Shown piece after piece: positions 1,063-49,299 of a stretch of DNA of 64,000 nt. The DNA lies in contig CAXHJY010000040.1 in NCBI GenBank assembly GCA_964016885.1, positions 1 to 64,000 on the forward strand, given 5' to 3'. The translations under genes and the position numbers were made by a program. The notes below the pieces were generated by a model, which worked only from the letters and a program-made list of their open reading frames with translations, was not told the origin of the DNA and searched no databases. This stretch comes from Eledone cirrhosa (lineage: Eukaryota). Position 1 is the first letter of the stretch. Each line of letters starts with the position of its first letter.

Positions 1063-1359
1063 AGATAAGCTAGTGAAGATGGTGGTGTGATATTGAAGTC
1101 GACACAACGCCATTAAATTCGACACGACGCCATTAAAGGTAACTCAAATTACACAAAAGAGGCATTGCTTACTGAACGGGAAACATTTAGAGCTACACTC
1201 ACCACATGACAGTTCGTGGAGATCGCGTGTGTATATATGTGTGTACGTGTGTATATATATATATATATATACTTATGTGTGCGTGTGTGTAGTGTGTATG
1301 TATGCGTATGTATATAAATATGCCATTGTGTGTGTGCGTATACATATATATATATATAT

Positions 1360-1444
<85 letters not shown>

Positions 1445-1641
1445 ACACATATACACACACTCATTTACATCTAAATTCATATATGTATATCACAACAGTA
1501 ATTTTACACCATAAACAGCACATTTTATACCTGTGTGTGAGTGTATAGTGTGCATGCATACATATATATACATATATCTATATATATGTGCATGCACACA
1601 TTATACATATAAACACGCAAATATATATATATATATATTTA

Positions 1642-31814: not shown

Positions 31815-31892
31815 TATTTTGTCTGAAGAGGACATGATTTGCTTTATGTTAAATATAAAACTTTACATCTTCGAAATATATATAATGAAATA
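31815..31892 (+). ncRNA. Minimal type I hammerhead ribozyme motif (family D, diverged)
   Basis: UAUUUUGU-CUGAAGA(31823-31829)-imperfect stem II GGACAUG/CAUCUUC-GAAA(31873)-UAUAUAUA-AUGAAAUA. Confidence 0.65.
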
Positions 31893-32047
31893 AATAGAGA
31901 TGTTATAAAGTATATATCTTTTATTACTATTTATTACGCTTGAGGGTGGCCGACCGGGGTAGAAGCTGCTAAATGTTCGGTCGCCCTCGTGTCTCTGATT
32001 TTCAGCCCCTTGGATTTTGTCTATTATATTCCTTTGTTATATTTCGA

Positions 32048-33127: not shown

Positions 33128-33335
33128 ATATATATATATTTTAATGCGATGAAATACTAATGATGGTTGGAAAATCACTGACGAAGGACTATTTTTATCA
33201 TATGTAACCCATGTGCAACCACGCAGTATTCTTCTTTCTTCTCATGTTTTTTATATATATCCGGGAGCTGCCAACAGAAATGGTCGCATTCTTTAAGGGT
33301 ATGTCAATATTTATTTATAAAACTGCTCTATATTA

Positions 33336-33400
33336 TATTTTATCTGATGAAAGCACACCATAATTTAACTTGGTGTCCTTGAAATATGTATAATGAAATA
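33336..33400 (+). ncRNA. Minimal type I hammerhead ribozyme (family D), intact core
   Basis: Stem I UAUUUUAU/AUGAAAUA (8 bp); CUGAUGA 33344-33350; stem II AAGcACACCA/UGGUGUcCUU (9 of 10 pairs); GAAA 33381; stem III AUAUGUAU; predicted AUA site ending at 33392. Confidence 0.8.
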
Positions 33401-33536
33401 AATATGGTTTTATAAATATAGTTTCCATTTGTTAATATATCGTATTATATATATATATATATATATATGTAGGAGGTGAGTTTTATTGTAGTACAATAAA
33501 GCAATGCAGATATCGGATAAGAAGCACTCTACAGCA

Positions 33537-42629: not shown

Positions 42630-42692
<63 letters not shown>

Positions 42693-42732
42693 GATATTAA
42701 ATAAATGGAAACTATATTTATAAAACCATATC

Positions 42733-42798
42733 TATTTCATTATATATATTTCAGGGATATCATATTAACAATATGCTATGCCTTCCTCAGACAAAATA
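42733..42798 (-). ncRNA. Minimal type I hammerhead ribozyme (family D variant)
   Basis: Reverse complement: UAUUUUGU-CUGAGGA-AGGcAUAgCAUAUU guu AAUAUGaUAUcCCU-GAAA-UAUAUAUA-AUGAAAUA. Confidence 0.75.
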
Positions 42799-42824
42799 CA
42801 ATATAGACAGTTTTATAGATAAAT

Positions 42825-42878
42825 ATATTTATAACTGATATAAAAGCACTCGAGTGCTTTTATATCAGTTATAAATAT
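42825..42878. repeat. Perfect 54-bp palindrome
   Basis: ATATTTATAACTGATATAAAAGCACTC|GAGTGCTTTTATATCAGTTATAAATAT. Confidence 0.95.
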
Positions 42879-42914
42879 TTACTAGTTGTAACCCAACAAT
42901 TTAAATATAACTTT

Positions 42915-46036: not shown

Positions 46037-46435
46037 TATATCTCTTCCTACGTGCACACACACAACTACTTATGCACACACACACACATATATATACAAA
46101 TATATCTCTCCCTACACACACATATCTATACATATATCTACACACACACACAGATATATCTCTCCCTACACACACACATATCTATACACGCACACATCTA
46201 TGCATACAGATACATCTATACACACACAGATATATCTACACATACACACACAAATATATATATATATATGTCTCATATAAAATAATACAACTGGCTATCC
46301 GCAAAATACGTATAGTTAGCACCCCAAACGTATAATTGAGATTATACTAAGGTATATCCTAATGTTTGTTGAGTGAGACAGAAGCCGGTCGGAGTATTGC
46401 TTAAAGCTTTCTTTGTTAATGTATTAAATATATAT

Positions 46436-46790
46436 CCGATATATTAACAAATGGAAACTATATTTATAAAACCACATTTATTTCATTATACATATTTCAA
46501 GGACACCAAGTTAAATTATGGTGTGCTTTCATCAGATAAAATATAATATAGAGCATTTTTATATAAAACCATATTTATTTCATTATACATATTTCAAAGA
46601 CACCAAGTTAAATTATGGTGTGCTTTCATCAGATAAAATATAATATAGAGCAGTTTTATATAAAACCATATTTATTTCATTATACATATTTCAAAGACAC
46701 CAAGTTAAATTATGGTGTGCTTTCATCAGATAAAATATAATATAGAGCAGTTTTATAAATAAATATTGACACACCCTTAAAGAATTGTAT
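46436..46790 (-). ncRNA. Tandem array of three 97-bp units, each with a minimal type I hammerhead ribozyme (family D)
   Basis: TCATCAG (reverse complement CUGAUGA) at 46529, 46626 and 46723; units are near-identical to the reverse complement of 33317-33415. Confidence 0.85.
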
Positions 46791-47134
46791 CCCAACAATT
46801 TAAATAGAACTTCTACACACACACATATATATATATCCCTACGTAAACACACATATTTATACACACAAAACTCACACCACACTACACACACCACACTACA
46901 CACACCACACTGAGTACACATGCAAATTGCCCTAACGCCTAAAAGTTGGTTTTTATTCTGCTAAAAAAGAAAGGAAAAGGAAAGGAAAAGGAAAACAAAA
47001 AGACAAAGGCGGCGGTGGGGTTGTGGGGGGGGGGAGGGTGTGTGTGCACTGAGCAAGTTGGTTCTCTCTTGATTTTGCGATAATTACTGTGGAAACTAGT
47101 TTAATTGGACGGCTGACTCAAAAGCTATTATCCT

Positions 47135-47710: not shown

Positions 47711-49042
47711 CATGGAGTTGGCTACCCGTAGCAGTGGAGACTTCTGGTGTCCTTGGCCCAAGGACCACTTCCCTTCTCCCCACCATAATGGGCACAGAAT
47801 TGGCTACCCGTAGCAGTAGAGACTTCTGGTGTCCTTGACCCAAGGACCACTTCCCTTCTCCCCACCATAATGGGCACAGAATTGGCTACCCGTAGCAGTA
47901 GAGACTTCTGGTGTCCTTGACCCAAGGACCACTTCCCTTCTCACCACCATAATGGGCACAGAATTGGCTACCCGTAGCAGTAGAGACTTCTGGTGTCCTT
48001 GACCCAAGGACCACTTCCCTTCTCACCACCATAATGGGCACAGAATTGGCTACCCGTAGCAGTAGAGACTTCTGGTGTCCTTGGCCCAAGGATCACTTCC
48101 CTTCTCACCACCATAATGGGCACAGAATTGGCTACTCGCAGCAGTGGAGACTTCTGGTGTCCTTGGCCCAAGGACCACTTCCCTTCTCACCACCATAATG
48201 GGCACAGAATTGGCTACCCGTAGCAGTAGAGACTTCTGGTGTCCTTGGCCCAAGTACCACTTCCCTTCTCACCACCATAATGGGCACAGAATTGGCTACC
48301 CGTAGCAGTAGAGACTTCTGGTGTCCTTGACCCAAGGACCACTTCCCTTCTCACCACCATAATGGGCACAGAATTGGCTACCCGTAGCAGTAGAGACTTC
48401 TGGTGTCCTTGGCCCAAGGACCACTTCCCTTCTCACCACCATAATGGGCACAGAATTGGCTACCCGTAGCAGTAGAAACTTCTGGTGTCCTTGACCCAAG
48501 GACCACTTCCCTTCTCACCACCATAATGGGCACAGAATTGGCTACTCGCAGCAGTGGAGACTTCTGGTGTCCTTGGCCAAAGGAGCACCTCCCTACTCAC
48601 TACCAACATGTTCACAGAATTGGCTACTCGCAGCAGTGGAAACTTCTGGTGTCCTTGGTCTAAGGCCACCTTCCTACTCACAGAATTGGCTACCCGCAGC
48701 AGTGGAGACTTCTGGTGTCCTTGGTCTAAGACCACCTCCCTCCTCACAGAATTGGCTACCCGCAGCAGTGGAGACTTCTGGTGTCCTTGGTCTAAGACCA
48801 CCTCCCTCCTCACAGAATTGGCTACCCGCAGCAGTGGAGACTTCTGGTGTCCTTGGTCTAAGGCCACCTCCCTCCTCACAGAATTGGCTACCCGCAGCAG
48901 TGGAGACTTCTGGTGTCCTTGGTCTAAGGCCACCTCCCTCCTCACAGAATTGGCTACCCGCAGCACTGGAGACTTCTGGTGTCCTTGGTCTAAGGCCACC
49001 TTCCTATTCACTACCATTGTGGACATGGAGTTGGCTATCCGC
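47711..49042. repeat. GC-rich satellite: about 11 x 82-bp units switching to about 6 x 66-bp units
   Basis: TTGGCTAC at 47718 and 47800 (period 82), and at 48686 and 48752 (period 66). Confidence 0.95.
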
Positions 49043-49299
49043 AATGTGTGAGCCTCATGAGTTGGAAGGAATGGTTCTTCAAACGCGGCTCTCTCAATTA
49101 TCTCCGGGGAAACACCTTCACTATTCTGTCCACCGGGGTCACGGGTTGGCCATCACGTGGGTTCCCGTTTGCTTGTAATAGTGAGAGATGGCGAGAGCGA
49201 GAGAGACGAAAGCAATGAGTGGAAGATAGAGAGAAAGATAGAAACATCAACTCAAAGAATTAACTTATTTTCTTTACCATAAATTTCATAAAATACTAT

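What the first reader, a model, noticed from the sequence alone, without database searches (positions are those of the whole stretch)
46436..46790. 3 x 97-bp tandem hammerhead-ribozyme array: candidate miniature retrozyme or circRNA source
Seen: three head-to-tail 97-bp units. On the minus strand each reads UAUUUUAU-CUGAUGA-AAGCACACCA-loop-UGGUGUCYUU-GAAA-UAUGUAUA-AUGAAAUA, with all conserved hammerhead core bases, an 8-bp stem I, a 9-of-10-bp stem II and a tiny near-palindromic stem III. Predicted cuts fall between 46486/46487, 46583/46584 and 46680/46681. Known: minimal type I hammerheads with palindromic stem III occur in Penelope-like element pseudo-LTRs and metazoan non-LTR retrozymes, and cleave as dimers of adjacent copies. 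Inference: a transcript through the array would release 97-nt monomers able to circularise, shorter than the retrozyme units I know of.
Basis: partly seen in the sequence, partly recalled or inferred. Interest (0 to 1): 0.9.

Follow-up and report, generated by a model that had tools for sequence, protein, structure and literature searches.

The report
Stuttered ribozyme end of Penelope retroelement
The three 97-base repeats are hammerhead-ribozyme motifs from the broken-off end of a very abundant Penelope-like jumping gene, tripled at this one spot in the genome, so this is likely an ordinary one-off by-product and not a new self-spreading RNA circle.

Summary
In detail: three head-to-tail 97-bp units, each with a complete minimal type I hammerhead on the minus strand, at the stated cut sites. 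Stems covary across relatives.

The retrozyme reading is not supported. The hammerhead is the pseudo-LTR motif of a Penelope-like element (PLE) with Hydra-clade protein motifs. A strict pattern finds 44,114 such hammerheads genome-wide, and 3,646 exact matches to this subfamily's core. Long copies flank a reverse-transcriptase/GIY-YIG-like reading frame.

The locus is a 379-bp 5'-truncated insertion with an inverted tail. Its 97-bp junction occurs only here (2 matches, both in this array), and it lies in the spacer, not at the ribozyme cut. Six other head-to-tail pairs exist, each with a different period, 91-128 bp. Units 1 and 2 share a rare allele (65 vs 4,215 genome-wide), which fits two successive local duplications.

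Dimer cleavage is structurally plausible but untested; no RNA data were available. The scan has reported similar PLE-end hammerhead cases in other genomes.

The parts
46785..46815 (+). Inverted copy of the end of the element's 3' 'tail', forming the 5' cap of the insertion; abuts a (CA)/(TA) microsatellite
   Evidence: 31 bp, 94-100% identical to the tail end of subfamily copies but in the opposite orientation to the hammerheads (tail seen in sense in L022-L024)
46738..46785 (-). 5'-truncated pseudo-LTR sequence upstream of the first hammerhead
   Evidence: Aligns to the pLTR of L096, L022 and the window copy at 33344, which all continue further 5'
46673..46737 (-). Hammerhead 1 (stem I 5' strand to stem I 3' strand); predicted cut 46681/46680; carries the rare T in stem II
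46654..46667 (-). Novel junction 1: pLTR 3' flank joined back to pLTR 5' flank at a TA microhomology, between the two TTTATAAA words that flank the hammerhead
   Evidence: Sequence; this junction word occurs only in this array
46576..46640 (-). Hammerhead 2; predicted cut 46584/46583; identical to hammerhead 1
46557..46570 (-). Novel junction 2, the same join as junction 1
46479..46543 (-). Hammerhead 3; predicted cut 46487/46486; family-type C in stem II; two private changes in its flanks
46437..46478 (-). Normal short 3' end of the element, stopping at a TA run
   Evidence: Same end as in many single copies, e.g. window 33344 and L025
46270..46436 (+). Neighbour, not part of the array: truncated end of a second (TA)n-associated repeat family lying tail to tail
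   Evidence: 2,418 first-look candidates for the query that includes it; among the 40 scored, many match this part alone at 95-98% identity without the hammerhead

Best explanation
This is a 379-bp, 5'-truncated insertion of an abundant Penelope-like retroelement whose hammerhead-bearing end is tripled at this single locus, likely by two successive local DNA duplications after insertion. Shown: the unit is the pseudo-LTR hammerhead of a family whose long copies encode a reverse transcriptase and a GIY-YIG-like domain with Hydra-clade motifs; the insertion has the class's inverted tail; the 97-bp join exists nowhere else in the assembly. Inferred: the parent's enzyme primed at a TA run, copied the pLTR, aborted and inverted onto the tail. 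A slip between the two AT-rich words flanking the hammerhead hairpin then made a dimer. One unit acquired a C-to-T change, and unequal exchange copied that unit again. Predicted: if a minus-strand transcript crossed the array, adjacent units could pair their palindromic stem III into a double hammerhead and cut, probably slowly. Nothing shows that it is transcribed or mobile.
For: 44,114 family hammerheads, control 0; 3,646 exact matches to this subfamily's core and stem II. Of 7 subfamily loci picked (6 for holding two matches 1-4 kb apart, 1 single match), 4 (L093, L095, L096, L097) hold RT/endonuclease frames on the hammerhead's strand, and L096 is pLTR-ORF-pLTR. The predicted fold matches reverse transcriptases including TERT. 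RW-, DKT, CxCX5C, CxxC and CxH motifs are present, as described for Hydra PLEs that insert into (TA)n (PMC8557442, section 11 read). The junction word has 2 matches in 3.0 Gb, both here. Of 18 distinct pattern hits at 20-80 nt spacing, only 6 other loci are true head-to-tail pairs, with periods 91, 93, 106, 108, 117 and 128. The rare T has 65 matches against 4,215 for C and is shared by units 1 and 2. The join is in the spacer, 23-24 nt after the cut, not at the cut.
Against: No empty or single-unit allele was found: the flank is unique in the assembly, so the order of events is inferred. The T allele also occurs in both arms of two inverted pairs, so it can come from the template RNA; that keeps duplication during reverse transcription alive. 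Pfam did not recognise the family's protein: 0 families for 4 frames and for L095. A sequence search of solved structures found nothing. Clade assignment rests on motifs, not on a tree. Exact patterns miss mutated tandem copies. DNA reads did not confirm the junction.
Confidence: 0.7

Rival explanations
1. Same element, but the repeats were made during the insertion itself: the PLE reverse transcriptase re-primed or switched template twice at the base of the hammerhead hairpin, as in the partial tandems typical of the class.
For: PLE insertions here are often complex, with inverted and stuttered ends (L097, L098; L047). The join is at a TA step, the family's apparent target. L034 joins two different subfamilies head to tail, which needs a template switch or self-insertion.
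Against: Both joins are the same to the base, which independent switches would rarely give. Units 1 and 2 share an allele that unit 3 lacks.
Confidence: 0.17
2. A true miniature retrozyme: a 97-nt circle released by dimer cleavage was copied rolling-circle fashion by the PLE enzyme and inserted here, or the array now makes such circles.
For: Complete cores in all three units; two units alone fold into the double-hammerhead topology as their minimum-energy structure (-35.3 kcal/mol). The array meets the operational definition used in 10.64898/2026.07.22.740005 (at least two tandem units with complete hammerheads). The parent enzyme family is present.
Against: The junction is found at one locus only. 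The array carries parent pLTR sequence on both sides that is not part of the 97-nt unit, so it is not a permuted circle copy. Units are not uniform. In the three-unit context an alternative rod (-73.4) beats the double hammerhead (-60.8, -62.2). In that preprint 8 of 9 tested tandem dimers did not cleave, and PLE minimal hammerheads cleave weakly even as dimers or trimers (PMC4209133).
Confidence: 0.06
3. Assembly artefact: one hammerhead was written three times.
For: The contig is not among the large chromosome-scale ones by number and is rich in simple repeats. None of the 16 pieces listed from four public DNA runs spans a junction or the whole stretch (6,576 more pieces not shown).
Against: Unit 3 differs from units 1 and 2 at three positions, and the join is a new sequence absent from all other copies. 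Short-read contigs of a family with thousands of copies are not expected to resolve a single-locus join.
Confidence: 0.07

Closest known systems
Minimal type I hammerheads in pseudo-LTRs of metazoan Penelope-like elements (Cervera and de la Pena 2014, PMC4209133; parts 1-2 of 4 read)
   Same: Long stem II, tiny palindromic stem III, thousands of mostly single genomic copies from truncated elements, pairs on opposite strands 100-700 bp apart, pairs about 3 kb apart flanking an RT frame.
   Different: Stem I is 8 bp rather than 4-5; pair 10.1-11.1 is mostly A-U (26 of 38); here three copies sit 97 bp apart.
Hydra clade of endonuclease-bearing PLEs (Craig et al. 2021, PMC8557442; section 11 and passages read)
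   Same: C-terminal GIY-YIG-like domain, RW- and DKT motifs, CxCX5C linker, CxxC and CxH around E and N, (TA)n insertion, hammerhead in the pLTR, inverted truncated 5' copy and tail.
   Different: The paper describes few families, mostly under 3 kb; this family has a unit of about 4.1 kb (L096) and at least 44,114 hammerhead matches. RWK reads RWL or RWR here. No tree was built.
Animal non-LTR retrozymes (Cervera and de la Pena 2020, PMC7229834, passages read; Li, Clavereau and Pollet 2026 preprint 10.64898/2026.07.22.740005, parts 1-3 of 5 read)
   Same: Tandem non-coding units each with a type I hammerhead, derived from a PLE pLTR. The preprint proposes this route: local amplification of an inserted PLE end.
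   Different: Classical retrozymes have canonical hammerheads, 170-400 nt expressed circles and many genomic arrays of one unit. This unit has one array, a minimal hammerhead and no expression evidence.

Membership tests
Type I (minimal) hammerhead ribozyme | Core CUGANGA, GAAA and UH with three stems in type I order | tested here: met
   covariation
Type I (minimal) hammerhead ribozyme | Match to an Rfam hammerhead model | tested here: not met
   No hammerhead family at E up to 5 and 10
Type I (minimal) hammerhead ribozyme | Palindromic stem III allowing a dimer | tested here: met
   8 of 8 inter-unit pairs, two of them G-U
Type I (minimal) hammerhead ribozyme | Self-cleavage at the predicted site | not testable with these tools
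   Needs an in vitro assay
Penelope-like element (fragment) | Sequence is the pLTR of elements encoding RT plus GIY-YIG | tested here: met
   92-98% identity to pLTRs in L093, L095, L096, L097; RT fold; GIY-YIG-like motif by eye and regex, weak BLASTP to a Pfam-confirmed GIY-YIG region; no direct Pfam hit
Penelope-like element (fragment) | 5' truncation with inverted copy and tail | tested here: met
Hydra clade | RWK, DKT, CxCX5C, CxxC/CxH motifs and (TA)n targets | tested here: met
   (RWL/RWR in place of RWK; DKT seen in the 2 of 9 loci long enough to hold it); TA ends
Hydra clade | Phylogenetic placement with reference Hydra RTs | not tested
   No reference sequences were at hand
Non-LTR retrozyme | At least two tandem units with complete hammerheads (operational definition of the 2026 preprint) | tested here: met
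   the preprint's energy filter was not applied
Non-LTR retrozyme | The unit is mobilised: same junction at several loci | tested here: not met
   2 matches, both in this array; other pairs have other periods
Non-LTR retrozyme | Abundant linear and circular monomer RNA | not testable with these tools
   No RNA holder listed

The most novel reading that the evidence does not exclude
A retrozyme caught at birth: an accidental 97-bp triplication puts minimal Hydra-type hammerheads close enough to form the double hammerhead, so read-through transcription would release 97-nt RNAs that circularise and could be picked up by the parent enzyme. The seven head-to-tail loci (91-128 bp) would be a natural series for testing how short a self-processing unit can be.
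Probability: 0.07. Interest if true: 0.5.

Novelty: new member of a known kind. Interest (0 to 1): 0.17.

Why it matters
As a genomic feature it is ordinary: one rearranged dead copy among tens of thousands. Its modest value is as a clean example of the first step proposed for retrozyme origin, local amplification of a PLE end, and as a ready natural dimer/trimer substrate for a Hydra-type hammerhead. The larger point is the family: a Hydra-like PLE with at least 44,114 hammerhead matches in one genome, where the clade description mentions only a small number of families.

Tried and rejected
Rfam scans at E up to 5 and 10 found no hammerhead model; the microRNA and snoRNA hits are below their gathering scores and come from simple repeats. 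Tandem Repeats Finder output was cut before the array's rows (150 of 367 shown), so the array was measured by script. Sequencing-run search: no RNA holder listed, which says nothing on expression. Laying four DNA runs was dominated by other family copies and decided nothing on the junction. A flank search for an empty allele found only this locus and one 48-bp weak hit. Pfam and a PDB sequence search missed the family's protein; the fold search identified it as an RT. I considered the sequence 3' of the array (46270-46436) as part of the element and rejected that: it occurs in many places without the hammerhead, separated by TA runs. No host gene was evident among window frames of 90 aa or more, judged by eye only. 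Lunse et al. (PMC5785218) is not held; I know it only from its title and citation in PMC6765202. Paper searches; the search for 'hammerhead ribozyme' with 'octopus' listed no paper on this family, within an incomplete library. Supplements were not read; Craig et al.'s files S1 and S2 may already list this family or its hammerhead.

Full report
Observation. The minus strand holds three CTGATGA cores at 46729, 46632 and 46535, each followed by a 30-nt stem II region, GAAA, a short self-complementary segment and the UA cut site. The cut-to-cut distance is 97 nt twice. A stem-aware descriptor finds six hits in the window, these three plus 31823+, 33344+ and 42790-, and none in 20 block shuffles. 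On 38 distinct relatives the proposed structure pairs 94.2% of cells. Twelve of 20 pairs have two-sided changes, 8 of them in stem II, against 35-56% pairing in slid controls. The core, stem III and part of stem I were fixed by the search patterns for many rows, so their conservation is not independent evidence. Rfam does not detect the motif.

What it belongs to. The motif is very common in this 3.0-Gb genome: 44,114 matches to a strict family pattern, control 0, and 3,646 exact matches to this subfamily's core and stem II. Listed copies are mostly single or back-to-back on opposite strands. I fetched six inverted pairs 2.6-3.7 kb apart from the wider family; all six hold pieces of one RT-endonuclease frame (L079-L084). 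Of seven loci of the exact subfamily (six picked for holding two matches 1-4 kb apart, one a single match), four hold the frame on the hammerhead's strand and a fifth holds a fragment of it. L096 is a pLTR-ORF-pLTR unit of about 4.1 kb. Pfam and a PDB sequence search miss this protein. A model from a 42-sequence alignment (mean pLDDT 80.9) matches reverse transcriptases including telomerase. The frames carry RW-, DKT, YRDD, CxCX5C, a GIY-YIG-like VVY..YVG, CxxC and CxH. These are the features Craig et al. give for the Hydra clade, which inserts into (TA)n and carries pLTR hammerheads (PMC8557442). Homologues are mostly unnamed proteins at 31-40% identity; named ones come from a coral, a bryozoan, a sea cucumber and, over a short part, an octopus. 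The host is not established here.

Anatomy of the locus. Read on the minus strand: microsatellite; 31 bp of the element's tail end in inverted orientation (46815-46785); truncated pLTR; hammerhead 1; join; hammerhead 2; the same join; hammerhead 3; the normal short 3' end; a TA run; then the end of a different repeat lying tail to tail. Truncation with an inverted copy and a tail is the described PLE insertion pattern (PMC8557442). In L096 the tail lies just upstream of the frame's start; internal priming that creates such tails was shown for an anole PLE (PMC11167929, parts 1-2 of 4 read).

Is the 97-bp unit a mobile family? No sign of it. The junction word has two matches in the genome, both in this array. 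Patterns for a hammerhead end followed by another core within 20-50 nt and 50-80 nt gave 16 and 3 matches, one shared. Besides this array, six loci are true head-to-tail pairs, all dimers, with periods 91, 93, 106, 108, 117 and 128. Each has its own join. These exact patterns give lower bounds. The join lies in the spacer, between two TTTATAAA words that flank the hammerhead hairpin in the parent, and not at the cut site, so ribozyme ligation did not create it. The array keeps parent sequence on both sides that is outside the 97-nt unit.

Order of events (inferred). Against the single copy at 33344, units 1 and 2 share one C-to-T change and unit 3 has two private changes. Genome-wide that T has 65 matches and C has 4,215. 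Two independent hits are improbable, so unit 1 or 2 was copied from the other after the first duplication. That, and the identical joins, fit slippage followed by unequal exchange. The T also appears in both arms of two inverted pairs, so it can be template-borne, and a double template switch during insertion remains the main rival. No empty allele was found, and public DNA reads did not settle the junction.

Would it work as a ribozyme? Two units alone fold into the double-hammerhead topology, with an 8-bp inter-unit stem III (-35.3 kcal/mol; -28.7 with cores held open). In the natural three-unit context a long rod is favoured (-73.4 against -60.8 and -62.2 for dimers and -54.2 for monomers). 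Cleavage would therefore depend on co-transcriptional folding. Published PLE minimal hammerheads are inactive as monomers and weak as dimers or trimers (PMC4209133). One needed protein help (PMC11167929), and 8 of 9 Xenopus tandem dimers did not cleave (preprint). No RNA run was available.

Comparison and verdict. It works like, and is, a PLE pLTR minimal hammerhead. It meets the loosest definition of a non-LTR retrozyme, under which units of 51-972 bp are already reported, but fails the test of mobilisation. Classical animal retrozymes are 170-400 nt expressed circles (PMC7229834). Earlier scan notes on other genomes reached similar readings for other PLE ends; they are unchecked and were not used as support. 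Verdict: correct catch, ordinary origin; interest 0.17.

Noticed in passing
G000 genome-wide: A Hydra-like PLE family with at least 44,114 hammerhead matches and several subfamilies with covarying stem II; a very large expansion for a clade described from few families.
   Followed up: partly
L017 about 1340-1480 (+); window 46270-46436 is the truncated end of the same repeat: Longer copies of the neighbouring repeat carry a hammerhead-like motif seen by eye: CTGATGA, a roughly 95-nt stem II region closed by a U-U pair, GAAAC and a palindromic stem III. My descriptor did not score it.
   Followed up: no
window 33262-33445 (+), 42680-42913 (-), 31815-31900 (+): Three more truncated single copies of the family in this window; the one at 42790 has an inverted-tail palindrome upstream.
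   Followed up: partly
window 32052+, 37107+, 62569+, 56944-, 33178+, 55207+, 43347-: Other repeated CTGANGA-bearing ends that look like further PLE families; not scored as hammerheads by my descriptor.
   Followed up: no
L034:1448-1623: Head-to-tail pair of hammerheads from two different subfamilies, 106 bp apart, with an inverted tail.
   Followed up: partly
L097:2900-4320 and L098:440-1700: Complex nested inverted clusters with four or more subfamily hammerheads within about 1.3 kb.
   Followed up: no
L085:1-1512 (+): An unrelated PLE frame with Pfam RVT_1 and GIY-YIG hits, so a second PLE clade is present in the genome.
   Followed up: partly
window 48463-49175: A tandem repeat of about 66 bp with open frames on both strands.
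   Followed up: no
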